Source of the DNA: Patescibacteria group bacterium
Lineage (GTDB): Bacteria; Patescibacteriota; Patescibacteriia; UBA2591; UBA6264
Reading direction: 5' to 3'
NCBI GenBank assembly: GCA_021735685.1
Contig: JAIPGN010000001.1
Location: forward strand, 202,678 to 266,677
DNA length: 64,000 nt
Within the stretch, counting starts at the first letter, position 1. Each line of letters starts with the position of its first letter. The notes under the pieces were generated by a model. That model was given only the letters and a program-made list of their open reading frames with translations. It was not told the origin of the DNA and searched no databases. The translations under genes were made by a program, and so were the position numbers. Shown piece by piece: positions 3,955-63,318 of this stretch.

Positions 3955-3960
3955 AAAAAT

Positions 3961-4037
3961 ATGTACGAGGTTCGACCTCGTACATTTGCCCCTAAAACGT
4001 CTCAACCATGCTATGTACGAGGTTCGACCTCGTACAT
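3961..4037 (-). repeat. Paired-palindrome repeat element, family P1 (two 25-bp perfect palindromes ATGTACGAGGT-CGA-ACCTCGTACAT separated by a 27-bp spacer), inverted copy
   Basis: Palindromes occupy 3961-3985 and 4013-4037. The loop reads TTCGA, the reverse complement of the TCGAA loop in the copies at 47115 and 47808. The spacer is the reverse complement of the spacer in those copies. Confidence 0.75.
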
Positions 4038-4060
4038 GGATAGTAGATAAAATAAAAAAA

Positions 4061-7706: not shown

Positions 7707-7772
7707 GAGTGCTTTTGTCAAGAAAATAATTGTGGATAATTAGGCCTGCCTGCTGATAGGCAGGGTCAATGA

Positions 7773-11535: not shown

Positions 11536-11588
11536 GTAAATAATATATTAGTGATAATAATGGAGATGATTGAAATTGTGGATAAGTT

Positions 11589-11617
11589 TTGACAAAAATT
11601 TCAATTATGTTATATTA
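11589..11617 (+). promoter_or_regulatory. Sigma70-like promoter (TTGACA, 17 nt, TGtTATATT extended -10) reading into a structured element
   Basis: -35 TTGACA at 11589-11594; TG at 11609-11610 followed by TATATT. There is no plus-strand ORF downstream. Confidence 0.35.
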
Positions 11618-11620
11618 ATA

Positions 11621-11714
11621 AATGGTGCTTGGAGGGCTTTGGCCCTGTCACGGCTATCCAAGCTGTAGCCAAGCGCCATTATTAAGACGTTGCGTTTTTA
11701 CGCAACGTTTTTTG
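11621..11714 (+). ncRNA. Candidate small RNA: GGTGCTTG-stem structured element (11621-11680) followed by an intrinsic terminator (11687-11714)
   Basis: Outer stem AATGGTGCTTGG/CCAAGCGCCATT encloses two inner hairpins (AGGGC-tttg-GCCCT and GGCTA-n9-TAGCC). Then ACGTTGCG-ttttta-CGCAACGT followed by TTTTTT. It is plus-strand inside an otherwise all-minus gene block. Confidence 0.3.
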
Positions 11715-11715
11715 T

Positions 11716-12207
11716 TTAATTTATGTTTTCTTCCATACTGCTACCATGCAAAATGCGTTTACCGTTTTTTTTGTCGATTTTCCAATAAGGGATAACGCTC
11801 CAGAAATATTTTTCTCCACCAGCCACGTTTTTAATTATAATTTTCAAGCGAATATTGTCTAGAACGGCAATAAATTCATAAAATGTGACATCTTTTAAAA
11901 TTTTTTTCCATTTTCCATTTGTTTTTTGTTGTTCAAATCGTTTAGTTTGCCAGATGCCTTGTAAGGTGTGAGAATTTTTTAGAACCTGTGGAACAAAAGG
12001 CAAAAGTTTTAATCGGGGATATTGATCAATTTGTGGTCTAGCCTGTTGATCTGTCTTGAACTTTAAGTGTCTTAATCCTTTTGCATTGAAAGCGATTTTT
12101 TCTTTAAAATAAGGGCATTTAATGTTATTTATTCTTTTATAAAAATTTTCAGCATCTTTTCTTATTTGGTCAAAATCATCTTTATTTTTAAGGTTAAATT
12201 TCCCCAT
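11716..12207 (-). CDS. Hypothetical protein
   Basis: 163-aa ORF within the glycan locus with no recognisable motif. Confidence 0.4.
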   Translation of the reverse strand: MGKFNLKNKDDFDQIRKDAENFYKRINNIKCPYFKEKIAFNAKGLRHLKFKTDQQARPQIDQYPRLKLLPFVPQVLKNSHTLQGIWQTKRFEQQKTNGKWKKILKDVTFYEFIAVLDNIRLKIIIKNVAGGEKYFWSVIPYWKIDKKNGKRILHGSSMEENIN

Positions 12208-24709: not shown

Positions 24710-24742
24710 AATTAATTTTTAAGGTAATTTTTATAAAATTTT

Positions 24743-24857
24743 ATTGCTTTTGAGTTATCCCCAGTTCAGGGGTTGTTAATTTTTTAGGATGTGATATATT
24801 TATTCATGGAGCGACTGTATTTCTTCGGAATTACTTTCGCTCCATTTTTATTTCTCC
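24743..24857 (+). repeat. Direct repeat DR-left (~110 bp; contains CCCC-agttca-GGGG and GGAGCGA...TCGCTCC hairpins with T-runs)
   Basis: About 98% identical to 25908-26023. It bracket-flanks the MNT plus partner gene pair. Confidence 0.8.
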
Positions 24858-25294
24858 AGTTTGGGGGTCGCACCTCCAAACTTTTTGTTTTTAAATTTTA
24901 ATTTTGGTTGTTTGACTAGCATTTTTTCCGCTTTTTTAAATATTTGCTTGACCCAGAGAATGTATTCTTGGTTTTGTTTTTGAGAGATAGTAGCGCCTCC
25001 CCCATAAAGCTCCCAATTTCTTTTGGATCGCATTTCGTTAGCTAAAATTTCTATTTCTGGATCTTGGAGAAAAATAGAAAGTTTTTTTATTAGTTCTATG
25101 TGATGGCCCCTTTTTGATTTCACCCTTAAGTCCTTGATGGCACAAATAGCGATAGCTAATTTTAGGAGAGCGTCATAAGAAAAACGGAAAGAAACTTCCG
25201 GGACATTGGAAGAAAAGGCTATTCTAAAATCTTTTTTAGCAGATTCATAGTAACGGTTTATTTGTTTTTCTGAAAATTTGAACTTTTCAAACAT
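24848..25294 (-). CDS. Hypothetical helical protein, putative partner (HEPN-like?) of the adjacent MNT nucleotidyltransferase
   Basis: Start abuts the stop of the MNT gene. No canonical Rx4-6H HEPN motif was seen. The C-terminal 9 aa are encoded by a palindromic repeat. Confidence 0.35.
   Translation of the reverse strand: MFEKFKFSEKQINRYYESAKKDFRIAFSSNVPEVSFRFSYDALLKLAIAICAIKDLRVKSKRGHHIELIKKLSIFLQDPEIEILANEMRSKRNWELYGGGATISQKQNQEYILWVKQIFKKAEKMLVKQPKLKFKNKKFGGATPKLEK
24858..24883. repeat. P2-like palindrome AGTTTGGGGG-tcgca-CCTCCAAACT
   Basis: Close relative of the AAGTTTGGAGG-n5-CCTCCAAACTT palindromes at 61387, 61664 and 61979. It lies in-frame at the 3' end of the 24848..25294 ORF, encoding KFGGATPKL. 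Confidence 0.6.
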
Positions 25295-25840
25295 TTAAAT
25301 AATTTTTATTATTTTTTGAGAAAAAACATTTTTAATAAAATCGTCCTTTTTTTCTTTTCTTTTTTTAAATTCTGCTGGCGAGAAATCAACAATATTTATT
25401 TCTCGGCCAATGTCTTTTTCTAGGGGTAGAACTATTCTTTTGGTAGCCAAAGAAGAGTGGTCGCCGATTAGAAGTAAATCAATGTCACTTTCCGCTTGCA
25501 AGTTATTTTTAGCGTAAGAGCCAAAAATATAGGCCTCTTTTAATTTTTTAATTTTTTGCAATTTATTTTTAAGATTTTCAACAACTCCGTAATTAGAATT
25601 ATAAATTCGTTTCAACTCTTCTAGAAGGGGATAGTCTTGGTTAAGAGAATAGTATTTTTGGTTACCGCGTTTTTCAGAAATTAAAATTTTTTCTTTTTCT
25701 AGTTCTTTTAATTTTCGAAAAAGATTCCCGACATCTAGATTTAATTTTTTGGCTAATTCATTAATATATTTTTCTTTTTGCGGGTTAAGAAAAAAATATC
25801 CTAAAATTTTTTTTGTAATGATTGAACGAAGTTTAAGCAT
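25295..25840 (-). CDS. Winged-HTH plus minimal nucleotidyltransferase (MNT) domain protein
   Basis: YIFGSYAKNNLQAESDIDLLLIG matches the GSxAxG...SDIDL MNT motif. An N-terminal wHTH precedes it. Confidence 0.7.
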   Translation of the reverse strand: MLKLRSIITKKILGYFFLNPQKEKYINELAKKLNLDVGNLFRKLKELEKEKILISEKRGNQKYYSLNQDYPLLEELKRIYNSNYGVVENLKNKLQKIKKLKEAYIFGSYAKNNLQAESDIDLLLIGDHSSLATKRIVLPLEKDIGREINIVDFSPAEFKKRKEKKDDFIKNVFSQKIIKII

Positions 25841-25880: not shown

Positions 25881-25907
25881 AACTTAACAATAAATTGTCA
25901 ATTATTA

Positions 25908-26023
25908 ATTGCTTTTAAGTTATCCCCAGTTCAGGGGTTGTTAATTTTTTAGGATGTGATATATTTATTCATGGAGCGACTGTATTTCTTCGGAATTACT
26001 TTCGCTCCATTTTTTATTTTTTA
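25908..26023 (+). repeat. Direct repeat DR-right (copy of 24743-24857)
   Basis: Near-identical to DR-left, with a one-base difference at the 5' end (A vs G) and an extra T in the T-run. Confidence 0.8.
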
Positions 26024-30717: not shown

Positions 30718-30730
30718 CTGAAAACGTTTA

Positions 30731-30751
30731 CTTGGGAGCCGAGCTTCTAAG
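30731..30751. repeat. Hairpin CTTGGGAGC-cga-GCTTCTAAG (P3 family copy 1)
   Basis: Related to CTTAGGAGC-cga-GCTCCTAAG at 30985-31005. G-U pairs would keep the stem intact in RNA. Confidence 0.5.
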
Positions 30752-30809
30752 TAAATAGTTGTCCACAGGGGAGGGGTTGCTAAAAAATAAAATTTTATTA
30801 AAATAAACT

Positions 30810-30886
30810 ATGGTGCTTGTCACGAACTTCGGTTCTTTGGTTTTCGTAAGGTTCGCCTTTCGTTTACCAAGCAAGCACCATTTTTT
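30810..30886 (+). ncRNA. GGTGCTTG-stem structured element with two internal UUCG-tetraloop hairpins and a T-run (complex terminator or small RNA), copy A
   Basis: ATGGTGCTTG...CAAGCACCAT 10-bp closing stem encloses GAAC-TTCG-GTTC and GTAAGG-TTCG-CCTTTCG, then TTTTTT. It is about 75% identical to the copy at 62983-63059, whose closing-stem bases differ. Confidence 0.4.
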
Positions 30887-30984
30887 ATTTCCGAAAATGG
30901 AATTGTAAGTCGAAAAAATGACGAGAAAAAAGATTTAGCTTGTTAAGCTGCTCAAAACATTTCTGGGCGGCTTCTTTATATCTA

Positions 30985-31005
30985 CTTAGGAGCCGAGCTC
31001 CTAAG
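30985..31005. repeat. Hairpin CTTAGGAGC-cga-GCTCCTAAG (P3 family copy 2)
   Basis: Perfect 9-bp palindrome with a CGA loop in the 390-bp ORF-free region 30718-31106. Confidence 0.5.
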
Positions 31006-35231: not shown

Positions 35232-36803
35232 ATGAAAAAACAAGATCAACGAGCTATGTTGATTATCTTAGATGGTTGGGGCGTGGGTCTAAAAAGTAAA
35301 GGAAACGCGATTGAGATGGCCCAAAAGCCCTTTTTTGATAGCTTAAGAGCCAAGTATTCTTATACAGAAATTTGTGCTCATGGTTTAAAGGTTGGTCTTC
35401 CTCAAGGGCAACCAGGCAATTCAGAAGCTGGTCATTTGAACTTGGGTGCGGGAAGAGTTATCGAAAGTGATGCTGTGCATATTGATAGTTTGATTAAGGA
35501 CGGAAGATTTTTCAAAAACCCTGCTTTTTTAGAAGGAATTAGCCATTATCAAAAAAATAAATCGCAAGTGCATTTAATGGGTTTAGTTACTGAAGAAAAC
35601 AGCGCTCATTCTTCGCCAGGTCATTGGTTGGCGATGCTTAATTTTTTAAAAGAAAAAAAGGTGCCAAAGGTTTTTTTGCATCTTTTTACTGATGGTCGTG
35701 ATTCTTCGCAACACGCGGCTATTAGGATTTTAGAAAGATTTGAGGCTAAAATTAATGGCAATGGCTCTCCTTTGAAAGTGGAAATTGTTAGCATTGTGGG
35801 GCGTTTTTATGCCATGGATCGAGTTCAAGAATGGAGTAACATTGAGAAAGCGTATCAGCTTCTTACGGAAGGAGAGGGCTTCCAAGCCAGTAGTGCGGCT
35901 GAAGCGATTGTTAGCGCTTATAACCGGAAAGAAACCGATGAGTTTGTTAGTCCGACGGCAATTGTTGATAAAAAAGGAAAACCTCAGGGTTTGATTAAAG
36001 ACAAGGATTTGGTTTTCTTTATGAATTTACGTTCTGATCGAGCCAGAGAGTTAAGTAAAGTTTTTGTTCAGAAAGATTTTGAAAAGAAAAATTCCAAGGC
36101 TTTTTCACGAAAAAAGTTTTTAGAAAATTTGTTTTTTGTAGCTTTAACTGATTTTGGGCCAGATTTAGGTCGAATTCGAACTGCTTTCCCGAGCCCAAAA
36201 GTTGAAGAAACTTTGCCTTTTTGTCTGTCTTCTCGCCAGCAATTATATGTAGCCGAAAGTGAAAAATATGCCCATATTACTTTTTTCTTTAACGGAGGAT
36301 ATGATCATGTGGTTGCTGGAGAAAAAAGAATAATTGTTCCTTCGCCAGCAGTTGAGTCTTATGACCTTCAGCCAGAAATGAGCGCCGAGAAATTAAGTGC
36401 CAAAGTTATTCAAGAAATCAATGCCAATCAACCTGGTTTTGTGGCCCTTAATTTCGCTAATCCAGACATGGTTGGGCATACTGGTAATTTGATTGCCGCG
36501 ACCAAAGCTGTTGAATGCGTTGATCGCAATTTAAAGAAAGTAGTAGCTTGCGCTCAGAAAAATAAATACTCTGTAATTATTACTGCTGATCATGGAAATG
36601 CTGAAGAGATGATTGATTTAAGGACTGGGGAAATACGTACTACCCACACTATTAATCCCGTTCCTTTTATTTTATTTGGTCCAGATCTTAAGTCGGTTCA
36701 ATTAAAGAAAGACGGTTCTTTGTCTGATGTGGCGCCGACAATTTTAGAAATTTTAAATGAATCAAAGCCGCCAATAATGAAAGGGCGAAGCTTAATTAAG
36801 TAA
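35232..36803 (+). CDS. gpmI: 2,3-bisphosphoglycerate-independent phosphoglycerate mutase, copy 1
   Basis: LIILDGWG, GNSEAGHLNLGAGR (catalytic Ser) and the ITADHGN metal site. Confidence 0.9.
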   Translation: MKKQDQRAMLIILDGWGVGLKSKGNAIEMAQKPFFDSLRAKYSYTEICAHGLKVGLPQGQPGNSEAGHLNLGAGRVIESDAVHIDSLIKDGRFFKNPAFLEGISHYQKNKSQVHLMGLVTEENSAHSSPGHWLAMLNFLKEKKVPKVFLHLFTDGRDSSQHAAIRILERFEAKINGNGSPLKVEIVSIVGRFYAMDRVQEWSNIEKAYQLLTEGEGFQASSAAEAIVSAYNRKETDEFVSPTAIVDKKGKPQGLIKDKDLVFFMNLRSDRARELSKVFVQKDFEKKNSKAFSRKKFLENLFFVALTDFGPDLGRIRTAFPSPKVEETLPFCLSSRQQLYVAESEKYAHITFFFNGGYDHVVAGEKRIIVPSPAVESYDLQPEMSAEKLSAKVIQEINANQPGFVALNFANPDMVGHTGNLIAATKAVECVDRNLKKVVACAQKNKYSVIITADHGNAEEMIDLRTGEIRTTHTINPVPFILFGPDLKSVQLKKDGSLSDVAPTILEILNESKPPIMKGRSLIK

Positions 36804-36811
36804 TATTTTTT

Positions 36812-38383
36812 ATGTCTAATCAGATTCAGCCGGTACTTTTAATTATTCTTGATGGCTTTGGAGTTGCCTCTGTTGGGAACGGCAATGCGGTTACTTCTGC
36901 TAATTTGCCGTCTTTGGAGGGATTGGTTAATAATTATCCCACTACCACTCTTCAAGCTTCTGGCGAATCTGTTGGCCTATCTTGGGGCGAGCCAGGCAAT
37001 TCAGAGGTGGGTCATTTGAATATGGGAGGCGGTCGTATTATTTGGCAAAGTTTACCTCGTATCACTCAGGCCATTAGTGATAATAGTTTTTTTAAAAATA
37101 AAGCTTTCTTGAAAGCAGTCGAGCATGCTCAAAAAAATAATTCGGCTTTACATTTAGCTGGTTTAGTCTCTAGCGGGGGAGTGCATTCTTCTTTTGGTCA
37201 CTTGCACGCTCTTTTGGAATTAGCTGCTCAACAGGGTTTAGAAAAAGTTTATTTACATATTTTTCTAGATGGACGTGACTCTCCGCGAGATAGTGGCCAA
37301 GGTTTTGTAGAGGATCTAATTTCCAAGATGAGGAAATTAGGAGTTGGTCAAATTGCAACTTTGTCAGGACGTTTTTACGCTATGGATCGGGATAATAATT
37401 GGGACAGAATTGAAAGGGCTTATTTGGCTATGACTAAGGGTTTAGCGGAAGAAGAATTTGAAGATCCTTTAGTTGCGATTGAATCTTCTTATCAAAAAGG
37501 AATTTATGATGAGGAATTTGTGCCCGTAGTGATTAAAGAAAAAGATCAAGAGCCAATAGCAGTACAAGATAATGATGCTTTAATTTTCTTTAATTTTCGT
37601 CCAGATCGAGCTCGACAAATCACGGAAGCTTTTACCAAAAAAGAATTTGATGGTTTTCCGCGCGAGAAATTGAATAACTTTCTAATGGTTACTTTGACTG
37701 AATACGAGCAAGGATTGCCAGTAGAAATTGCTTTCCCAGTTGAAGACATTAAAAATCCTTTAGCCGAGACGATTAGTTCGGCTGGACATGGTCAATTTCA
37801 TATTGCCGAAACTGAAAAATATGCCCACGTTACTTTTTTCTTTAATGGCCGACGAGAAAAGAATTTCCCGCAAGAGGAAAGAATTCTAATCCCTTCTCCG
37901 CAGGTCAGTTCTTATGATCAAAAGCCAGAAATGTCTGCTCCTCAGGTTACTCATCAAGTTTTATGGGCCTTAGGAGATAAGAAATATAAGTTTATAGTAG
38001 TTAATTTTGCTAATCCAGATATGGTGGGTCATACGGGTAATTTAGGGGCAGTGATTAAATCTTTGGAAACTTTAGATGGTTTGGTGGGCAAAATTGTTGA
38101 TTTGGCCTTGAAGCAAAATTGGGTTAGTATCATTACTGCTGATCACGGCAATTGTGAAAAGATGATTAATTTAAGAAGCGGAGAGATTAATAAAGAGCAC
38201 ACTAATAATCCGGTTCCTTTTTTGGTCATTAAAAAAGGAGTAGAGGATCGGGGATTTTCTGGAGGTTTAAAAAATTTAAGCGCCTTAACTCCTAGTGGAG
38301 TTTTGGCTGATGTTGCTCCGACGATTTTAAAGATTATGAATTTGCCTCAGCCCCCAGAAATGCAAGGAATTTCTTTGGTTTAA
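36812..38383 (+). CDS. gpmI: 2,3-bisphosphoglycerate-independent phosphoglycerate mutase, copy 2 (divergent tandem paralog)
   Basis: LIILDGFG, GNSEVGHLNMGGGR and ITADHGN. Same 523-aa length as copy 1, with roughly 40-45% identity estimated by eye. Confidence 0.9.
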   Translation: MSNQIQPVLLIILDGFGVASVGNGNAVTSANLPSLEGLVNNYPTTTLQASGESVGLSWGEPGNSEVGHLNMGGGRIIWQSLPRITQAISDNSFFKNKAFLKAVEHAQKNNSALHLAGLVSSGGVHSSFGHLHALLELAAQQGLEKVYLHIFLDGRDSPRDSGQGFVEDLISKMRKLGVGQIATLSGRFYAMDRDNNWDRIERAYLAMTKGLAEEEFEDPLVAIESSYQKGIYDEEFVPVVIKEKDQEPIAVQDNDALIFFNFRPDRARQITEAFTKKEFDGFPREKLNNFLMVTLTEYEQGLPVEIAFPVEDIKNPLAETISSAGHGQFHIAETEKYAHVTFFFNGRREKNFPQEERILIPSPQVSSYDQKPEMSAPQVTHQVLWALGDKKYKFIVVNFANPDMVGHTGNLGAVIKSLETLDGLVGKIVDLALKQNWVSIITADHGNCEKMINLRSGEINKEHTNNPVPFLVIKKGVEDRGFSGGLKNLSALTPSGVLADVAPTILKIMNLPQPPEMQGISLV

Positions 38384-47052: not shown

Positions 47053-47199
47053 AATTTCCAGAAAAAATTTGTTCAGCTTCTGCCTAGATCAAACCTAGGT
47101 AAATAATTCCCAAAATGTACGAGGTCGAACCTCGTACGTCGCATGGTTAAGCTGTTCTAGGGGCAAATGTACGAGGTCGAACCTCGTACATGTTTTTTT
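47053..47199 (+). repeat. P1 paired-palindrome element, extended copy B (leader AATTTCCAGAAAAAATTTGT..., then two 25-bp palindromes, then T8)
   Basis: Palindromes at 47115-47139 (one mismatch) and 47167-47191, followed by TTTTTTTT. It lies immediately after the murJ stop. Confidence 0.7.
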
Positions 47200-47268
47200 T
47201 GAATATTGACAAGTTGGCTATTTTTTGCTATTCTCGTAATATCTTTAAAAAATGCAAGGAGGTGCGCC

Positions 47269-47673
47269 ATGCTTTTATTTGCAGACGCAATTCTAGTTAT
47301 TTTTTTGCTTGGTTTAAGTAGAAAAATAACTTCACAGATTCAGATAGCGGAGTCTTTCCGCCGTTGTCGTTGCCAAAAAGAAGAGAATGAGGAAGAAGAG
47401 TCAGCGGAAAATCTATTTTTCTTAATTTTCAGTTGGCTTCTCTTTATTTCTTCTGCGATTTTCCTCCTTTTCTTCCCTAAAGATTTTTCATGGAGGGAAA
47501 CCGCTGTTTTGGTAGCTGCGTTCCAGTTTATTTTGAGTCTTTGTGGAATGTTTTTCCTGGGGCACAAGAAAGCGTTCCATGTAATTCTTAGCGAATATGG
47601 CTTTAAAGCTGTGTTCGCAGCCACGATCATTACTGGGGTTTTTGTTGCTTTTTTGTTAGCTATTTTTTCTTAA
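47269..47673 (+). CDS. Small polytopic membrane protein, hypothetical (134 aa, about 4 TM segments)
   Basis: AGGAGG RBS at 47254-47260, 6 nt before ATG 47269. Bracketed by P1 copies B and C. The TTG start at 47206 in the ORF track is rejected. Confidence 0.45.
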   Translation: MLLFADAILVIFLLGLSRKITSQIQIAESFRRCRCQKEENEEEESAENLFFLIFSWLLFISSAIFLLFFPKDFSWRETAVLVAAFQFILSLCGMFFLGHKKAFHVILSEYGFKAVFAATIITGVFVAFLLAIFS

Positions 47674-47754: not shown

Positions 47755-47893
47755 AATTTCTAGAAAAAATTTGTCTAGACTTGTCTAAGCTGGGCTTATC
47801 CAAACAAATGTACGAGGTCGAACCTCGTACATCGCATGGTTAAGCTGTTCTAGAGGCAAATGTACGAGGTCGAACCTCGTACATATTTTTTTT
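47755..47893 (+). repeat. P1 paired-palindrome element, extended copy C
   Basis: Leader AATTTCTAGAAAAAATTTGT..., perfect palindromes at 47808-47832 and 47860-47884, then T9. The 78-bp core is about 97% identical to copy B. Confidence 0.7.
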
Positions 47894-47984
47894 GAGACAA
47901 AAGTTTTGGGGGCGAAATTTCCAAATCTTGTCAGCTCCTAAACTTTATCATTGTCCTGTCTCTTCGGCTTTAGTCTGTCTAAAA

Positions 47985-50871: not shown

Positions 50872-50878
50872 GAAAGAA

Positions 50879-50950
50879 TAGCAGGAGCGGGGATCGAACC
50901 CGCGACATGTGCCTTATGAAGACACCGCTCTGCCACTGAGCTATCCTGCC
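50879..50950 (-). tRNA. tRNA with CAU anticodon (elongator Met or Ile2/lysidine type)
   Basis: Reverse complement GGCAGGA-TA-GCTC-AGTGGCA-GAGC-G-GTGTC-TTCATAA-GGCAC-ATGTC-GCGGG-TTCGATC-CCCGC-TCCTGCT-A forms a cloverleaf with a G1-U72 wobble, a CAT anticodon and no encoded CCA. Confidence 0.8.
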
Positions 50951-50951
50951 A

Positions 50952-51026
50952 TGGTTGCGGGGACAGGATTCGAACCTGTATCCTCCAGGTTATGGGCCTG
51001 GCGAGCTGCCATTGCTCTACCCCGCG
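50952..51026 (-). tRNA. tRNA-fMet-like (CAU anticodon, C1:A72 mismatch, encoded CCA)
   Basis: Reverse complement CGCGGGG-TA-GAGC-AATGGCA-GCTC-G-CCAGG-CCCATAA-CCTGG-AGGAT-ACAGG-TTCGAAT-CCTGT-CCCCGCA-A-CCA. The unpaired C1/A72 is an initiator hallmark. One nucleotide separates it from the next tRNA. Confidence 0.8.
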
Positions 51027-57232: not shown

Positions 57233-57515
57233 TTTTTTTGGATTGACAAAAGGTCAATTTTGTGATATCTTGATGATATAAGAATGAATAAATTATTAGT
57301 TTAATTTAAAAAAATGGAATTTAAAAAATTAAGTCATCAGGAGAAAGAAGAAGAGCAAGAAGCTTTAATTGCTCGAGAAGAAGAGGAGGAGGAAGAAAAT
57401 GAAGAAGCTTTAATTGCTGAAGAAGAGGCCGAAGAAAAAGAGGAGAGAAAAAGAAAAAAAGCTTTATTTTATAAAAAGATTAAAAAAGACAAAGAACAAG
57501 ATTAGCTTTAACTAT

Positions 57516-60500
57516 ATGGAAATGTCTAAAAAAAATAACAAACCTGAGGAAAAAAAGGCAACAGGTGAAACTAAAGAAGGAAGTAGCTATGAAGCTCAGA
57601 TAAAAAAAGCAGAAAATATTGATGCTTTAATGGCAACTTTAGATGATATTCCTAATTTTTTTGAGGAAGAAAATGAGGATAAAGCTAAAGAAGAATTTAA
57701 GGAAAAATTTGAAATTCTTAAAAAAGAAGTTGAGGCTCGTAAAGAAGATGAAGACGTCGTTGAATATGGCGGCTTTAATTTTTTTACTACAGAATATGGA
57801 TTAAGAAGCAAGATAAGAGAGCTGTTATTGGGAGAAAGCTTTAAAGATGAAATAGAAAATAAAGACGCAGAAGAACAAGAAACAGAAAAGGAGAAAGCAA
57901 ATAATGAAAAAGAAGAAGAGAGAAAAAAAAGGGAAAAAGAGGCTCTAGAAAAGAAAGCTGAGGAAAAAGAAATGCTTTATTCTACTAAAATTGATTTAAT
58001 GGAAGATCTTGATGATAATGAAAAGAAAGAATTAAAAGATAAGGTAAGATTTGTTAATAAAGAAAAAGTAGCTGAAGAGTGTCAAGGAGATTTTGAGGAA
58101 TTGTTAAAATTGTCTGCCCAAGAGGAAGGGGAGATAGTTAAAAAGAAAAAAGAAGACAAAGATGAGAAAGTTGAAGAAGGTAAAGAGGAAGAGGAGAGTG
58201 AAGAGCAAATAGAAATTGATCTTGAAGGATTACCAACAGAAGGGGAAGGTAAGTATCAGGAAAAAATAAAAGAAATGAGCGAGAAATTAGATTTACCTGA
58301 GGAAGAAATTGAGCAAATTGTTAACCAACAAAAAGCTAATTTAGTTGAATTAACAGCTCAGAAATCTAAAAAGAAAGAAAAGAAATGGAAGAAAATAGGC
58401 AAAACTTTGGGAATTTATGCGGTTCTTGGCGGCGGCTTAGGTTTATTAACTGGTGGCTTAGGCATTGGTATTGGTCTTGCGGCCGGAAGAATCATTGATA
58501 CTATTTTTAAAGGAAAGAAAACTAAAAAGGATCAAGAAAAGGCCCAACAAGAAGTTAATGCCATTTTATTAAAAACCAAAGAGGCTGAAGGAGAAGCCGA
58601 TAAAGAAGAAGACGAAGGCACGAAAAGTGTTTTGGATTCTTTTTATGATAATATTTTTACTGAATTGTCTTTGGCTAAGCGCAATCAAATCGAGGGCCAG
58701 AATAAAGAAAAGAGTGAGCTTGGAAAAAAAATTTCTAAACTAGAAGAAAGTTATCGCCCAGAAGATAAAGAAAAATTAGCAGAACTTTATCAAACGAGAA
58801 GGGAACAGCAAAAAGAAAAAATCCAAGATTATTTAATGGCAAAGGGCTTAGAAGGAGAAGAATTAGAAAAAAGAGTGAAATTGTCAGCTCAGTTAGTAGA
58901 ATTAGATGATAATCAAAAAATAATGGAACTTGATTTTGCTAAACGCAAGGCCAGTAAAGTCGCTAAGATCTTTAGCAAACTAGATTCAATTTTAAGTCAT
59001 CCTGCTCTTTTGGGTGGAGCCAAGCAGGCAGAGAGCCAAAATAAAGAAAAGATAATTACTGCTAGTATTTTTGCAGTAGCTGGTGTTTTGGCTCGTTCTT
59101 GCCCAATAGTTAGGAATGTTTTAATGGCTTATGCGGGTATGAAATTAGGCTCTGCTGCCGCTGATTTAATGTTTGGAAAAAACAAAGAACTAAGAGAGGT
59201 TTCTGGCGAACAGCTTAGCCTAGAAAGCAGCGTTGAGGACCTTAATCGAGCTAAGGCCCAACTTTTAGACCCTAAATATAAAGAAAAAAATCCTTTAGAA
59301 CATGCTAAATTACAAGAAAAAATATTTGCTATTGATCGTGCCAGAATGGAGAAAGCCTTAGGAAAGACAGAGGCAACAGAGAGGGAAGATGAGGAGGCTG
59401 AAGGTGAAAAAATTGAAACTGATTCAGAGGAAGAGAAGATAGAGGTAAAAGAAGAAGAGGAAATAAAAGAAGCTGTAGAGGAAAAATATGGTTACATTGT
59501 TCAGGCCAACCAAGAATTAGAAGAAGCAATTAAAAAAAGAAGAGCAGCTCAGGGAGCACATAAAGGAATGAAAATATTTTTAGGAATAGCTGGCGGAGTA
59601 GCAGGTTGGTTTTTGGGAGAATATATGAATAAGCAAAATGAGGCTAAGGAAGCAGAGAAGGCCCAAGCAAAGAAATTAGAAGAAACGCAAAAAGATTTTC
59701 CTAAAGAAAATGTTAATAATGAAACTCCTCTTGACAAGCAAATAAAAATGTCAGCTGCCGAATTAGAAGCGCAAGAAAAGGAGCTGGCTCGAATTGAAGC
59801 AGAAAGAAGAATGGCTGAACTTAATAAGCCCGTTGTAGTAGAAAAGGGAGATACGGTTTGGGGAGTGTGCGAAAAGCAATTAGAAGAAAGAGTAGATAAT
59901 TGGGAAGAATTAAGCCAGGCGGAAAAAGATTATTTGATTGATTGGTATAAAGATAAAGTAGTGGCTAATCCCGCAGAGTATGGAATTGATGGTGGTAATG
60001 CCAGTTCTTTAAAAATTGGCTCGGAAATTAAAGTTGCTAATTTATTTAAAGATCAGGGTGAAATGGTTAAAGCTTTAGCTAAAGCACAGGGCTTAAGTAC
60101 GGAACAAGTCCAAAATATTATGAATAATCGAGAATTGATTGGTAATGTTATGAGTCAAAAATTAGAAGAAGTTCCCGGAGATAAATTATTAGAAGCAGTG
60201 CGAGTGATGGGCGGAACTGATCAAGCGGGGGCTGGCTTTGTGGCTGAAGTTGAAAAAAGAGCCACTGAGGTTTTAGGGGAAGCTGTTACTTCTGATCAAA
60301 CTCAAACTATATTAAATAATCCTGAGGTTTTTGGGAAAATAATGGATTCTGGGGTTGAGAGTCTTGAAGAAGTGGAAAATGAAACTTTGGGTCAAGCCTT
60401 TAGGCTGCTTAAGAATACTGATAGCGTGGGCAAAGAATTACTTCAAGAGGCTCAAGAAGTAGAAGGAGCGATAGGAGAAGAGTTAGTAGAAAGAGCTAGT

Positions 60501-61001
60501 GGTAGTTGGGAAAGGATTAAGAATATTATCGGTGGAGACCCCTATGACAATCAATTTCATGCTGGTTATGACATTGACCCTAATAAGCCCTTGATGAGCG
60601 TTTATCAGAATGATTGGATATCTCAAAAAGCTGACGAGGCTTTAAGTAAAGGAGATGAATTAATTAGTCAAGCTGAAAAAATGCAGGAATTGATTGGCAA
60701 GAGTGACTCTTGGTGGCATAAACTTTGGGGTATTGAGGGTAAAATTGAAAAATTAAAAGACACCTTTGATCAAAATACTGACATCTTTAATCAGGTGAAA
60801 GAAACTTACTATAATGGTTGGCAGCAAGGAAAATCTTCGGCTCAAGAATGGTTTAATCTAACCGGAGATAAAAAGATTCTTGGTGATTATTTTGGAGGAG
60901 ATTTTTTCGAAAAAAATAACTCTCTTTTGAGCGAAAAAATATCAAAATTACAAGAATTAATTAACCAACTAGGCAGTCGATATAGCAATGGAGCAGTATA
61001 A
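57516..61001 (+). CDS. Large (~1160 aa) E/K-rich coiled-coil membrane protein with glycine-zipper TM segments and a C-terminal LysM-like domain, hypothetical
   Basis: Start chosen at ATG 57516 (MEMSKK). Low-complexity charged N-terminal ~300 aa; TM GIYAVLGGGLGLLTGGLGIGIGLAAG; two further hydrophobic segments; VVVEKGDTVWGVCEKQ...IGSEIKV is LysM-like; the C-terminal ~350 aa is globular. Confidence 0.55.
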   Translation: MEMSKKNNKPEEKKATGETKEGSSYEAQIKKAENIDALMATLDDIPNFFEEENEDKAKEEFKEKFEILKKEVEARKEDEDVVEYGGFNFFTTEYGLRSKIRELLLGESFKDEIENKDAEEQETEKEKANNEKEEERKKREKEALEKKAEEKEMLYSTKIDLMEDLDDNEKKELKDKVRFVNKEKVAEECQGDFEELLKLSAQEEGEIVKKKKEDKDEKVEEGKEEEESEEQIEIDLEGLPTEGEGKYQEKIKEMSEKLDLPEEEIEQIVNQQKANLVELTAQKSKKKEKKWKKIGKTLGIYAVLGGGLGLLTGGLGIGIGLAAGRIIDTIFKGKKTKKDQEKAQQEVNAILLKTKEAEGEADKEEDEGTKSVLDSFYDNIFTELSLAKRNQIEGQNKEKSELGKKISKLEESYRPEDKEKLAELYQTRREQQKEKIQDYLMAKGLEGEELEKRVKLSAQLVELDDNQKIMELDFAKRKASKVAKIFSKLDSILSHPALLGGAKQAESQNKEKIITASIFAVAGVLARSCPIVRNVLMAYAGMKLGSAAADLMFGKNKELREVSGEQLSLESSVEDLNRAKAQLLDPKYKEKNPLEHAKLQEKIFAIDRARMEKALGKTEATEREDEEAEGEKIETDSEEEKIEVKEEEEIKEAVEEKYGYIVQANQELEEAIKKRRAAQGAHKGMKIFLGIAGGVAGWFLGEYMNKQNEAKEAEKAQAKKLEETQKDFPKENVNNETPLDKQIKMSAAELEAQEKELARIEAERRMAELNKPVVVEKGDTVWGVCEKQLEERVDNWEELSQAEKDYLIDWYKDKVVANPAEYGIDGGNASSLKIGSEIKVANLFKDQGEMVKALAKAQGLSTEQVQNIMNNRELIGNVMSQKLEEVPGDKLLEAVRVMGGTDQAGAGFVAEVEKRATEVLGEAVTSDQTQTILNNPEVFGKIMDSGVESLEEVENETLGQAFRLLKNTDSVGKELLQEAQEVEGAIGEELVERASGSWERIKNIIGGDPYDNQFHAGYDIDPNKPLMSVYQNDWISQKADEALSKGDELISQAEKMQELIGKSDSWWHKLWGIEGKIEKLKDTFDQNTDIFNQVKETYYNGWQQGKSSAQEWFNLTGDKKILGDYFGGDFFEKNNSLLSEKISKLQELINQLGSRYSNGAV

Positions 61002-61386: not shown

Positions 61387-61413
61387 AAGTTTGGAGGCTG
61401 AACCTCCAAACTT
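61387..61413. repeat. P2 palindrome AAGTTTGGAGG-ctgaa-CCTCCAAACTT (copy 1, loop in inverted orientation)
   Basis: Perfect 11-bp arms. The CTGAA loop is the reverse complement of the TTCAG loop in copies 2 and 3. It lies 60 nt upstream of the transposase-like ATG. Confidence 0.7.
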
Positions 61414-61474
61414 TTTCGTTCCTTTTTTTAAAATTATTTCAAAATATGTTTATAATGATTATAATAAAAAACAT

Positions 61475-62185
61475 ATGAGCAAAAGAAAGGTTCAATTTAT
61501 TAATGATGAGTATTATCACGTCTATAATCGAGGAGTTGATAAGAGAATAGTTTTTGAGTCTTCAGAAGATTTAGAAAGATTCTTTTTAAGTATGCAAGAG
61601 TTTAACGATATAAATCCTATTGGCAGCATTTATGAGGAAAAATTAATCAAAAATAGAATAGAAAAGTTTGGAGGTTCAGCCTCCAAACTTTCAGCCTCTG
61701 ATTTTTCCCCGAAAGAAAAGGAGAAATTAGTAGAATTCATTTGTTATAATTTATTGCCAAATCATTATCATTTTTTTCTGAAGCAATTAGTAGATAATGG
61801 GATTCAGAAATTTATGCATAGAATATCAACGGGCTATACGGGATTTTTTAACAGGAAAAATAAGCGCAACGGTTCTTTGTTTCAAGGCAGATATAAAGCA
61901 ATTCATGTTAATTCTAATGAGTATTTGTTGCACTTAAGCACATATATTAATCTTAATCACCAGGTACATAATTTAGAAAAGTTTGGAGGTTCAGCCTCCA
62001 AACTTTTTAAATCTAGTTGGAGAGAATATTTAGGGCAGGATCAAAAAGAAATTTGCGCTAAGGATATTATTTTAGATCAATTTGACTCTAGTAATAATTA
62101 TCAAAAATTTAGCGAAGAAGGTTTAGAAAGAATTAAGGAGAGCAAAGAAATTCAAAAATATTTATTAGAGGAATTAAATAATTAA
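61475..62185 (+). CDS. IS200/RAYT-like HuH (Y1) transposase-family protein with two in-frame palindrome-encoded inserts
   Basis: YHVYNRGVDKRIVF (beta1), LLPNHYHFFL (HuH-type HxH motif) and SLFQGRYKAIHVNSNEYLLHLSTYINLNH (Y-containing helix) are colinear with the Y1 transposase/TnpA_REP fold. The sequence EKFGGSASKL occurs twice and is encoded by P2 palindromes. Start chosen at ATG 61475. Confidence 0.55.
   Translation: MSKRKVQFINDEYYHVYNRGVDKRIVFESSEDLERFFLSMQEFNDINPIGSIYEEKLIKNRIEKFGGSASKLSASDFSPKEKEKLVEFICYNLLPNHYHFFLKQLVDNGIQKFMHRISTGYTGFFNRKNKRNGSLFQGRYKAIHVNSNEYLLHLSTYINLNHQVHNLEKFGGSASKLFKSSWREYLGQDQKEICAKDIILDQFDSSNNYQKFSEEGLERIKESKEIQKYLLEELNN
61664..61690. repeat. P2 palindrome AAGTTTGGAGG-ttcag-CCTCCAAACTT (copy 2, inside the transposase-like CDS)
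   Basis: Perfect arms. Translated in-frame as KFGGSASKL. Confidence 0.7.
61979..62005. repeat. P2 palindrome AAGTTTGGAGG-ttcag-CCTCCAAACTT (copy 3, inside the transposase-like CDS)
   Basis: Identical to copy 2 and 315 bp downstream of it. It is translated in the same frame as copy 2. Confidence 0.7.
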
Positions 62186-62922: not shown

Positions 62923-62982
62923 GTTTTTGAGTTATCCACAGACAAAGGGTTGTGTAAAAATAATAATCTGTTAAGATAAATA

Positions 62983-63059
62983 ACGGTGCTTATTTTGAAC
63001 TTCGGTTCTTTGGTTGACGAAAGGTTCGCCTTTCAGATGCCAGATAAGCACCATTTTTT
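62983..63059 (+). ncRNA. GGTGCTTG-stem structured element with two internal UUCG-tetraloop hairpins and a T-run, copy B
   Basis: GGTGCTTAT...ATAAGCACC 9-bp closing stem encloses GAAC-TTCG-GTTC and GAAAGG-TTCG-CCTTTC, then TTTTTT. The closing stem differs from copy A while pairing is preserved. Confidence 0.4.
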
Positions 63060-63318
63060 ATTTTCAGATTTTGAGTATAATTAAAACTATTTTTAATTGA
63101 CGTCAAATTAATTTGGCGTTTTTTTAATTTATAATATTGACGAATTAAAAATAAAGTATTAAATTAAAAACAATAATTTTGGTTATGTTATTCTTAAGAA
63201 GAAATATTAAAAGAGAATTATTTTGTCCTTTTTTAATATTTCTTTTTTTATATGATTTGATTGGGAGAAATAAATTTTGGGAGCGAAGTTTTATCCGATT
63301 ATTAAGCTCTCCTCTTGT

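What the first reader, a model, noticed from the sequence alone, without database searches (positions are those of the whole stretch)
11589..11714. Candidate plus-strand small RNA with its own extended -10 promoter and terminator inside an all-minus-strand glycan operon block
A near-consensus promoter (TTGACA, 17 nt, TGtTATATT) is followed by a ~60-nt element closed by the stem AATGGTGCTTGG/CCAAGCGCCATT, with two internal hairpins. A clean intrinsic terminator follows (ACGTTGCG-ttttta-CGCAACGT followed by T6). No ORF fits. The same GGTGCTTRT closing stem recurs at 30810 and 62983, so this is a repeated, structurally conserved module. Here it has acquired a promoter. It is transcribed antisense to the direction of the surrounding polysaccharide genes, so it could regulate or insulate them.
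Basis: seen in the sequence. Interest (0 to 1): 0.6.

Follow-up and report, generated by a model that had tools for sequence, protein, structure and literature searches.

The report
Conserved small RNA paired with protein
The flagged element is a real small non-coding RNA gene with its own promoter and terminator. It is not tied to the sugar-synthesis genes around it: in every related CPR (Patescibacteria) locus examined it sits next to one conserved 160-residue protein of unknown function.

Summary
Window 11589-11714 (+) carries a near-consensus extended -10 promoter, a 60-nt three-way-junction RNA (11621-11680) and an intrinsic terminator.

The interpretation needs revision. The RNA is not specific to the glycan operon. 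It lies convergent to the 163-aa ORF 11716-12207 (-), and its terminator T-run ends 3 nt from that ORF's stop codon. This protein is a basic, LPD3-like protein of unknown function. The database search returned 578 CPR homologs; the best 120 listed are 60-99% identical.

In all nine distinct lineages inspected, in differing gene neighbourhoods, the same RNA sits in the same position beside that gene. Each copy has its own promoter and terminator. P1 covaries at three pairs. The ~40-nt interior is almost invariant. The terminator sequence drifts but stays a hairpin.

No Rfam family, tRNA or ribozyme model matches. The protein has no match in the phage, plasmid or viral collections searched, and its GC3 tracks host GC.

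Most likely this is a new RNA-protein module in which the RNA binds or controls the adjacent protein. That mechanism is inferred, not shown.

The parts
11577..11585 (-). TTATCCACA, a DnaA-box-like 9-mer 3 nt upstream of the RNA's -35, in reverse orientation. It lies between the RNA promoter and the divergent DegT start.
   Evidence: The same box lies next to the promoter of most orthologs: reversed in L195, L203, L207 and L199, and forward at the canonical spacing in L211. On the minus strand its geometry (box, about 8 nt, -35 region, 17 nt, -10, ATG) also fits a leaderless DegT promoter.
11589..11594 (+). -35 hexamer TTGACA of the small-RNA promoter
   Evidence: 11 of 12 consensus matches. 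A -35/-10 pair is present in all nine orthologs.
11608..11616 (+). Extended -10, TGtTATATT. The inferred transcription start is about 11622-11624, at the first bases of P1.
   Evidence: The TSS position is inferred from the usual 6-8 nt distance; it was not measured.
11621..11680 (+). Three-way-junction RNA core. P1 is 11621-11632 with 11669-11680. P2 is 11633-11646 (UUUG loop). J2/3 is GUC, 11647-11649. P3 is 11650-11666 (AUCCA loop). J3/1 is AG, 11667-11668.
   Evidence: Fold. Alignment A6 of nine lineages: P1 covaries at 3 pairs, P2, P3 and the junctions are invariant, and 97% of cells are paired against 22-46% when the partner is slid. RNAalifold predicts the same structure. Model R2 scores 87.5 bits on this strand and 21.5 on the other.
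11681..11686 (+). A/U-rich linker between the junction and the terminator. It reads ACUAAAGRA in six of the nine lineages.
   Evidence: In those orthologs the A-rich linker pairs with the U-tract, which gives the hairpin the form of a two-way terminator.
11687..11713 (+). Intrinsic terminator: stem ACGUUGCG/CGCAACGU, loop UUUUUA, then a U-run. It ends 3 nt from the stop codon of the convergent gene.
   Evidence: 12-pair terminator-like site at 11684-11711. All nine orthologs have a hairpin plus U-run here with unrelated stem sequences.
11716..12207 (-). 163-aa basic (pI 10) LPD3-like protein of unknown function, the invariably linked partner gene.
   Evidence: 578 homologs, the best 120 listed being 60-99% identical. 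The RNA is adjacent in every locus inspected. Pfam LPD3 is sub-threshold at 24.4 bits against a cut-off of 27. The AF2 model has pLDDT 84. There is no PDB fold match, and BFVD gives LPD3 hits at probability 0.92-0.95.
30758..30888 (+). Not part of the module. Distantly related small-RNA unit 'el2': GTTGTCCACAG box, promoter TTGCTA-16-TAAAAT, a three-way junction with two UUCG loops, and P1 plus U6 acting as its own terminator.
   Evidence: Homologs in other low-GC metagenome contigs covary at 7 pairs. Model R1 scores 94 bits. R2 does not detect it.
62931..63061 (+). Not part of the module. Second copy of the el2-type unit ('el3'), 78% identical to el2 over 134 nt.
   Evidence: repeat family D3; 99 bits.

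Best explanation
Window 11589-11713 (+) is the gene for a transcript inferred to be about 90 nt long. It consists of a very stable three-way junction, a short linker and an intrinsic terminator.

It is one half of a two-gene module conserved in Patescibacteria (CPR) of the Parcubacteria/Paceibacterota type. The other half is the convergent 163-aa basic LPD3-like protein gene (11716-12207, -). That gene's stop codon lies 3 nt from the end of the RNA's terminator T-run, so the two units share one hairpin as a two-way terminator.

Shown: the anatomy, the strand, one RNA match per locus that carries the gene, linkage to the protein gene in nine lineages with differing neighbours, covariation in P1, and near-invariance of the interior.

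Inferred: the RNA is transcribed from its strong promoter and acts through its invariant P2/P3/junction surface by binding the co-inherited protein. It would then be either a stable ribonucleoprotein partner or an RNA that holds the protein inactive. It does not act by antisense control of the surrounding glycan genes. The protein's invariant Tyr/His/Arg/Gln residues would suit a nucleic-acid-binding or metal-independent RNase-like site, but that is a guess.
For: Anatomy: promoter scoring 11 of 12 with TG, and a terminator. Fold z = -8.3.

Linkage: the protein has 578 homologs. In every locus fetched through it (L195-L212, nine distinct lineages) model R2 finds exactly one RNA, convergent to the gene and just past its stop codon. 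It finds none in about 120 kb of CPR loci that lack the gene. Neighbouring genes differ between loci: GT4/DegT, obg, AbiTii, dnaX-like, a cation ATPase, and hypotheticals.

RNA-level selection: P1 shows GC/AU, UA/CG/UG and GC/AU/GU exchanges. 97.3% of cells are paired against 22-46% when slid. RNAalifold agrees. The interior of about 40 nt is identical across hosts whose locus GC ranges from 0.31 to 0.56.

Strand: the invariant G-U in P3 and several G-U pairs in P1 pair only on this strand. The sense strand folds on average 4.5 kcal/mol better than the antisense. The U-run and the promoter are on this strand in 9 of 9.

Resident, not mobile: the protein's GC3 tracks host GC (0.19-0.72). Neither the protein nor the RNA core is found in IMG/VR, and the protein has no match in phage or plasmid records.

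Protein plausibly binds nucleic acid: pI 9.2-10. Y23, H47, R57 and Q83 are invariant across a superfamily of about 1000 clusters.

Not antisense to its partner: no conserved RNA-mRNA duplex site was found.
Against: There are no expression data, so transcription and the RNA ends are inferred from sequence signals.

Nothing here shows physical binding. Gene linkage could also reflect the shared terminator, or 3'-end antisense overlap.

P2 and P3 never vary, so their pairing is not supported by covariation.

All orthologs were reached through protein homologs at least 60% identical. Whether the more divergent superfamily members also carry the RNA, and whether the RNA ever occurs without the protein, could not be tested because look-ups and scans were exhausted.

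The protein has no informative fold match. Its LPD3 relationship is sub-threshold, and the function of LPD3 is itself unknown (PMC5512222).
Confidence: 0.55

Rival explanations
1. 3'-overlap antisense regulator of the 160-aa gene, with type I toxin-antitoxin-like geometry. The convergent RNA and the mRNA share the terminator hairpin, so their 3' ends are complementary. Duplex formation or transcriptional interference would control the level of the protein's mRNA.
For: The convergent arrangement, with the RNA's terminator U-run a few nt from the gene's stop codon, is conserved in 9 of 9 lineages. The A-tract/hairpin/U-tract symmetry suggests termination in both directions.
Against: The overlap is only the roughly 25-30 nt terminator. 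That is the least conserved part of the RNA, while the non-overlapping junction is invariant. No conserved pairing with the mRNA's 5' region was found. The protein is 160 aa, hydrophilic and basic, unlike type I toxins.
Confidence: 0.17
2. Trans-acting small RNA with unlinked targets, either base-pairing or binding some other protein. Its position next to the 160-aa gene would then be historical, or due only to sharing a terminator.
For: It is an independent transcription unit with a strong promoter. The same genome carries other promoter-to-terminator small-RNA units with no fixed neighbour: el2, el3 and the D4 repeats.
Against: Linkage survives complete reshuffling of the surrounding genes in nine lineages, which is hard to explain without a functional tie. 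Almost every nucleotide of the core is paired, leaving very little single-stranded seed.
Confidence: 0.15
3. One reading: an antisense RNA that regulates or insulates the surrounding minus-strand polysaccharide operon.
For: In this window it does lie on the opposite strand, between GT4/163-aa and DegT in an all-minus block. The same placement occurs in the closest ortholog, L195.
Against: In L199, L201, L203, L205, L207, L211 and L212 the same RNA lies in non-glycan contexts, always beside the 160-aa gene. DegT appears to have its own box-type promoter downstream of the element.
Confidence: 0.04
4. A non-functional repeat, or merely an elaborate terminator or 3'-UTR structure of the 160-aa gene. 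The promoter-like hexamers would be incidental in AT-rich DNA.
For: The genome is full of hairpin repeats: REP-like hairpins, and repeat families D1 and D4. Promoter-like hexamers are common here, 28 found against 11.5 expected in 3 kb.
Against: Model R2 finds one copy in each locus that carries the gene, and none elsewhere in the loci held. A junction interior that stays invariant while the actual terminator hairpin drifts is the reverse of what a terminator-only role predicts. The G-U pairs, the U-run and the promoter all fit the plus strand, not the gene's strand. A promoter is kept at a fixed distance in 9 of 9 hosts of very different GC content.
Confidence: 0.07

Closest known systems
Structured non-coding RNA genes linked to the gene of their protein partner (Y RNA next to rsr; ssrA/tmRNA next to smpB in many bacteria). 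From established knowledge, not tested here.
   Same: A small, highly structured, sequence-conserved RNA with its own promoter and terminator. It is kept adjacent to one particular protein gene across lineages whose other gene neighbourhoods differ. One RNA match was found per locus carrying the gene. Both partners evolve under strong purifying selection.
   Different: Neither the RNA nor the protein resembles those families. There is no Rfam hit and no tmRNA or tRNA-like call. The protein is a 160-aa LPD3-like fold with no PDB match. Binding is not shown.
Type III toxin-antitoxin systems (ToxIN, AbiQ/antiQ, CptIN), in which an RNA directly binds and neutralises a ~170-aa endoribonuclease. From established knowledge.
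   Same: A two-gene RNA-plus-protein module. The protein is a basic ~160-aa alpha+beta protein with invariant polar residues. The RNA has a strong promoter. In some loci the module sits near Abi or toxin-antitoxin genes.
   Different: Type III antitoxins are tandem repeats encoded upstream on the same strand, separated from the toxin gene by a terminator. Here there is a single unit, convergent and downstream. Foldseek gives no ToxN/AbiQ-like match. PADLOC shows nothing significant. Conservation and GC amelioration point to a resident gene rather than a patchy defence gene.
Type I toxin-antitoxin pairs with convergent, 3'-overlapping antitoxin RNAs (txpA/RatA, bsrG/SR4 of Bacillus subtilis). 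From established knowledge.
   Same: Convergent small RNA and protein gene with overlapping 3' ends and a shared two-way terminator.
   Different: The overlap is restricted to the terminator. The protein is not a small hydrophobic peptide. The conserved part of the RNA lies outside the overlap.
The el2/el3-type small-RNA units of the same window (30758-30888, 62931-63061) and their metagenomic homologs.
   Same: The same P1 sequence in this genome (AUGGUGCUUG / CAAGCRCCAU). A three-way junction with a stable tetraloop hairpin as P2. A promoter ending 5-7 nt before P1. A DnaA-box-like 9-mer upstream.
   Different: The interior sequence differs and P3 is longer and branched. P1 plus U6 serves as the terminator, rather than a separate hairpin. 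There are two copies in this 64-kb window and no fixed protein neighbour. The two covariance models do not recognise each other's families at significant scores.

Membership tests
Any Rfam 15 family (including SRP, 6S, tmRNA, riboswitches, hammerhead, twister, pistol, hatchet) | Match to the family covariance model at or near its gathering score | tested here: not met
   The whole window at gathering thresholds returns only two tRNAs. Permissive scans of the element, of an ortholog and of el2 give best hits of 14.5-20 bits against cut-offs of 50-62, with E of 0.18-0.9.
tRNA / tRNA-like | Cloverleaf with an anticodon arm and a T-arm | tested here: not met
   ARAGORN finds only the two tRNA-Met genes at 50878-51026. 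The element has no T-arm and only a 5-nt P3 loop.
Independent sigma-70 transcription unit ending in an intrinsic terminator | -35 and -10 hexamers at 16-18 nt spacing, followed by a G+C-rich hairpin and a U-run on the same strand | tested here: met
   (11 of 12 with TG; 12-pair hairpin plus T-run). Both signals recur in 9 of 9 orthologs. Actual transcription is not testable with these tools.
Structured RNA under selection for base-pairing | Compensatory changes in the helices | tested here: met
   P1 has 3 pairs with changes on both sides; 0 of 500 shuffles reach the observed covariation score, and slid controls show almost no such changes (0-1 pairs against 3). P2 and P3 are invariant and therefore uninformative.
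Same family as the copies at 30810 and 62983 (el2 type) | Mutual detection by covariance models and a shared core sequence | tested here: inconclusive
   R1 (el2 type) hits the element at 25.7 bits, E about 2e-4. This rests mostly on the P1 sequence, which was also the ascertainment pattern. R2 (el1 type) does not hit el2 or el3 even at E of 10.
Type III toxin-antitoxin | Tandem RNA repeats upstream of, and co-directional with, a ToxN/AbiQ-fold endoribonuclease gene | tested here: not met
   A single RNA unit, convergent and downstream. No ToxN/AbiQ fold match. No significant PADLOC hit.
Type I toxin-antitoxin | Small hydrophobic toxin peptide, with an antisense RNA overlapping its mRNA | tested here: not met
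   The protein is 163 aa, hydrophilic and has pI 10. The overlap is limited to the terminator, and there is no conserved duplex elsewhere.
MITE / REP-type repeat | Many near-identical copies per genome, with terminal inverted repeats and target duplications or an associated transposase | tested here: not met
   R2 finds one copy in each locus that carries the gene. Sequence divergence tracks the host. Absent from the viral, phage and plasmid collections searched.
LPD3 domain (Pfam PF18798), for the partner protein | Score at or above the Pfam gathering threshold of 27 bits | tested here: inconclusive
   24.4 bits, E 3.5e-5. 21 of 42 homologs hit at E below 0.01. Foldseek against BFVD gives LPD3 proteins at probability 0.92-0.95 but E of about 0.02 and TM of about 0.4.
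Ribonucleoprotein (RNA physically bound by the adjacent protein) | Specific binding of the RNA by the protein | not testable with these tools
   The only evidence is gene linkage in nine lineages, a basic protein and an invariant RNA surface.

The most novel reading that the evidence does not exclude
The RNA and the 160-aa LPD3-like protein form a previously unrecognised, vertically inherited ribonucleoprotein that is part of the core biology of Parcubacteria-type CPR bacteria. It would be a new housekeeping RNP, in the way that SmpB-tmRNA or Rsr-Y RNA are, possibly an RNA-controlled RNase. It would also give the first functional handle on the LPD3 domain that phages and conjugative elements deliver inside polyvalent proteins.
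Probability: 0.3. Interest if true: 0.85.

Novelty: new member of a known kind. Interest (0 to 1): 0.66.

Why it matters
CPR/Patescibacteria make up a large share of bacterial diversity. They have tiny genomes and many conserved genes of unknown function, and I found no described small RNA matching this one in Rfam or in the literature searched.

This RNA has a core of about 40 nt that is identical across hosts whose locus GC ranges from 0.31 to 0.56. It is locked to one equally conserved protein. That gives a concrete hypothesis that can be cloned: two small parts, testable by EMSA, by co-expression and in metatranscriptomes.

It could also give a first functional lead for the LPD3 domain, whose role in phage and plasmid polyvalent proteins is unknown.

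On the practical side, the ultra-conserved RNA may break CPR assemblies. Two contigs end inside it, and many homologs of the protein sit on ~1-kb contigs.

Tried and rejected
1. A genome-contig scan with GGTGCTTN{38,60}AAGCRCCATTWTT was swamped by a conserved Bacteroidota coding region and chance hairpins. The same pattern on viral contigs gave only chance hits.

2. Synteny through IleRS. The nearest relatives are only 62-66% identical and lack any element after ileS.

3. A DnaA-box reading of TTATCCACA as a feature of the RNA alone was rejected. The same box precedes many ordinary, often leaderless, protein-gene promoters in relatives.

4. A coding reading (leaderless ATG at the transcription start) was rejected. 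The ATG is absent in many family members, and substitutions are compensatory rather than synonymous.

5. SRP RNA, ribozyme, riboswitch and tRNA identities: no model support.

6. Conserved pairing between the RNA and its partner mRNA: none. The best sites fall at unrelated positions in each genome.

8. Domain fusions in the superfamily: none among the best 150 representatives, all of which are stand-alone proteins of about 70-236 aa.

9. Literature: no paper contains the RNA sequence, and no described CPR small RNA of this kind turned up.

Full report
OBSERVATION.
TTGACA lies at 11589-11594, followed by a 16-nt spacer and the extended -10 TGtTATATT at 11608-11616. The scan scores this promoter 11 of 12 with an upstream TG. 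The 12-bp stem AAUGGUGCUUGG/CCAAGCGCCAUU (11621-11632 with 11669-11680) encloses two hairpins. These are AGGGC-UUUG-GCCCU and ACGGCU-AUCCA-AGCUGU, joined by GUC and AG. After the linker AUUAAG comes the terminator ACGUUGCG-UUUUUA-CGCAACGU and a U-run ending at 11713. The transcript folds at -49.8 kcal/mol, with z = -8.3 against shuffles. The mechanically listed 57-aa ORF at 11622-11795 runs through the terminator, and its ATG is missing in orthologs. The surrounding block 4113-27689 is entirely minus-strand, and the genes around the element that were scanned encode polysaccharide enzymes: Polysacc_synt_2, DegT, GT4 and LicD.

ORGANISM.
IleRS in the window is 100% identical to a protein from a 'Patescibacteria group bacterium'. 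The nearest other IleRS proteins are only 62-66% identical and belong to Nealsonbacteria/Paceibacterota-type CPR. The same locus also occurs in a Logan assembly.

THE TWO OTHER COPIES ARE A DIFFERENT, RELATED FAMILY.
GGTGCTTRT does recur at 30812 and 62985. Those elements, called el2 and el3 here, are 78% identical to each other over 134 nt. Each folds into a three-way junction with two UUCG loops. Each uses P1 plus U6 as its terminator. el2 has a scan-detected promoter, TTGCTA-16-TAAAAT. el3 has only a weak candidate that the scan did not call, but it aligns with the promoter region of el2 and of the homologs.

A metagenome scan found true homologs in four other sequence variants (L149/L154/L188, L190, L157, L151). 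All keep an upstream GTTATCCACAG box, a -35 and a -10. Seven of their base pairs show changes on both sides. A model built from them (R1) reaches the flagged element at only 25.7 bits. It also revealed still more divergent units that share the box, the promoter and a terminal U-run: window 24740-24849 and 25905-26014, and L190 10799-10950.

The box is not specific to RNAs. The same box-to-promoter geometry drives ordinary, mostly leaderless, protein genes in relatives and in the window, including DegT just left of the element.

WHAT THE FLAGGED ELEMENT REALLY BELONGS TO.
The convergent ORF 11716-12207 (-) encodes a 163-aa protein. The search returned 578 homologs, and the best 120 listed are 60-99% identical. 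Those that carry names are from Nealson-, Portnoy- and Sungiibacteria and from Paceibacterota. I fetched loci for nine of these homologs.

In the closest ortholog (L195-L198, 73% identity) the gene order GT4, 162-aa gene, RNA, DegT is syntenic with the window, and the RNA is plainly orthologous. The same RNA is also present where the neighbours are entirely different. It follows small hypothetical genes in a Nealsonbacteria genome (L199) and an SdrD-like gene (L201). It follows AbiTii in a complete Sungiibacteria genome (L203), and a gene that overlaps obg (L205). It also lies near a cation ATPase (L207), in a high-GC contig (L211), and next to an RRM protein and a dnaX/holB-like gene (L212).

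A covariance model of these nine sequences (R2) finds exactly one hit per locus that contains the gene. Each hit is on the strand opposite the gene and starts just past its stop codon. R2 finds no hit in CPR loci that lack the gene, and no hit to el2 or el3. Contigs L198 and L206 end inside the RNA.

SELECTION ON THE RNA.
In the nine-lineage alignment, P1 shows GC/AU, UA/CG/UG and GC/AU/GU exchanges. 97.3% of cells are paired, against 22-46% when partners are slid, and no shuffle reaches the observed covariation score. RNAalifold recovers the same junction unaided.

P2, P3 and both junctions, about 40 nt, are essentially invariant. The exceptions are a U/C change in the P2 loop, a 2-nt insertion in the P3 loop in two lineages, and single changes in L205, L211 and L212. 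The host loci range from 0.31 to 0.56 GC.

By contrast, the promoter spacer, the linker and the terminator stem differ freely, yet always give a hairpin plus U-run.

Several features assign the RNA to this strand. The G-U pairs, one invariant in P3 and several in P1, pair only on this strand. The sense strand folds on average 4.5 kcal/mol better. The promoter and the U-run are also on this strand.

In six of the nine lineages the linker ACUAAAGRA pairs with the U-tract. The hairpin is then flanked by an A-tract and a U-tract, and the gene's TAA follows the U-run after two bases. That is the form of a two-way terminator shared by the convergent pair.

THE PROTEIN.
It is basic (pI 9.2-10), and its GC3 follows the host (0.19-0.72). 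This argues for long residence rather than recent transfer. tblastn finds it in no phage or plasmid record, and neither it nor the RNA core is found in IMG/VR.

Pfam gives only a sub-threshold LPD3 match. PADLOC, PHROGs, NCBIfam and PDB sequence searches give nothing. The AlphaFold2 model (pLDDT 84) shows an N-terminal helix, a beta-hairpin, two helices and a long antiparallel sheet. Foldseek finds no PDB match, and finds only LPD3 domains of phage polyvalent proteins in BFVD, at probability 0.92-0.95 and E of about 0.02. The function of LPD3 is unknown (PMC5512222).

A full scan of 1.84 billion representatives finds 1029 clusters at E of 1e-3 or better. All of the best 150 are stand-alone proteins of about 70-236 aa. 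Y23, G44, H47, R57, Q83, F135 and P140 are invariant down to 27% identity.

MECHANISM.
Shown: an independent plus-strand promoter-to-terminator unit; a structured RNA under selection; strict linkage to one protein gene.

Inferred (about 0.55): the RNA works through its invariant surface on the linked protein, either as an RNP partner or as an inhibitory RNA.

I found no conserved duplex between the RNA and the partner mRNA. The only complementary segment is the poorly conserved terminator. A purely antisense mechanism is therefore less likely (about 0.17). Regulation or insulation of the glycan operon is contradicted by the non-glycan contexts (about 0.04). A trans-acting role with unlinked targets (about 0.15) and a non-functional or terminator-only reading (about 0.07) remain possible.

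COMPARISON WITH KNOWN SYSTEMS.
In logic it is closest to non-coding RNA genes kept beside their protein partner (Y RNA with rsr, tmRNA with smpB), and to RNA-protein toxin-antitoxin pairs of types III and I. It meets the defining features of none of these; see the membership table. No Rfam family matches, and no paper containing the sequence was found.

VERDICT.
The real finding is larger than the one flagged. It is a new small-RNA family that forms a conserved two-gene module with a protein of unknown function, found here in nine CPR lineages and probably widespread among Parcubacteria-type bacteria. Function and binding remain to be shown experimentally.

Noticed in passing
window 30758-30768, 62931-62941, 24754-24764, 25919-25929, 7730-7740 (-), 11576-11586 (-); L130 6556 (-) and 4633 (-); L134 9870 (-) and 8039 (-): An 11-mer, GTTATCCACAG, contains a perfect DnaA-box 9-mer. 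It sits 8-9 nt upstream of the -35 of many promoters in this CPR lineage and its relatives. These promoters drive small RNAs and also leaderless protein genes (Gp49/HigB-like, AbiEi, HTH_17, DegT). It may be a global regulator site, perhaps for DnaA. That is unproven.
   Followed up: partly
window 24740-24849 and 25905-26014: Two 110-nt direct repeats, 98% identical. Each is a box, a promoter, a UUCG-capped hairpin RNA and a U-run. Together they bracket the two-gene pair 24848-25294 / 25295-25840, of which the latter encodes a nucleotidyltransferase (Polbeta/NTP_transf_2). This looks like a cassette bounded by small-RNA units.
   Followed up: partly
window 24858, 61388, 61665, 61980; L133 about 7210; L134 about 12940; L190 about 10770: A REP-like hairpin, AGTTTGGAGG-N5-CCTCCAAACTT, recurs in the window. 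Three copies lie at the start of or inside the Y1_Tnp (IS200-like) ORF 61391-62185. It also occurs after ileS in relatives. It may be a RAYT/REP-type system in CPR.
   Followed up: no
window 3959-4048, 47113-47202, 47806-47895: A 90-nt repeat family made of two copies of the palindrome AAATGTACGAGGTCGAACCTCGTACAT. Copies lie on either side of the small ORF 47206-47673.
   Followed up: no
window 30730-30751 and 30984-31005: The 22-nt hairpin ACTTRGGAGCCGAGCTYCTAAG after ileS is duplicated. The two copies bracket the el2 small-RNA unit plus about 95 nt. This would fit insertion of the unit into, or duplication of, the ileS terminator. Relatives have a plain hairpin at this position and no RNA unit.
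   Followed up: partly
L188 358-560; L149, L154; L190 10799-11000: In other CPR contigs the el2-type RNA unit lies directly upstream of a promoter (TTGCTC-N16-TGtTATAAT) that is followed in L188 by an ORF I read by eye as ribosomal protein S2 (rpsB). The L190 copy at this position has a much more divergent, larger RNA body.
   Followed up: partly
L198 2658-2684; L206 2142-2173; contig lengths: Two contigs end inside the el1-type RNA, and many homologs of the 160-aa protein sit on ~1-kb contigs. The ultra-conserved RNA may break metagenome assemblies where several CPR species co-occur.
   Followed up: no
L195 3900-4359 and 4359-6944: In the closest ortholog locus, DegT carries an intein with a LAGLIDADG domain. 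An extra ORF on the DegT strand lies between the RNA and DegT, preceded by the same box. I read it by eye as a small helical protein; it was not called or scanned by any tool.
   Followed up: no
window 50878-51026 (-): Two adjacent tRNA genes with anticodon CAT, differing in sequence. They could be initiator, elongator or tRNA-Ile2 precursor.
   Followed up: no
window 57339-57428 and 57414-61001: A 1195-aa ORF with no Pfam match begins within a 45-nt tandem repeat that encodes an acidic E/K-rich segment.
   Followed up: no
window 35232-36803 and 36812-38383: Two tandem 523-aa ORFs that share repeat segments at 70-86% DNA identity. The syntenic loci in relatives carry two tandem phosphoglycerate-mutase (iPGM) genes at this position; the window ORFs themselves were not scanned.
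   Followed up: no
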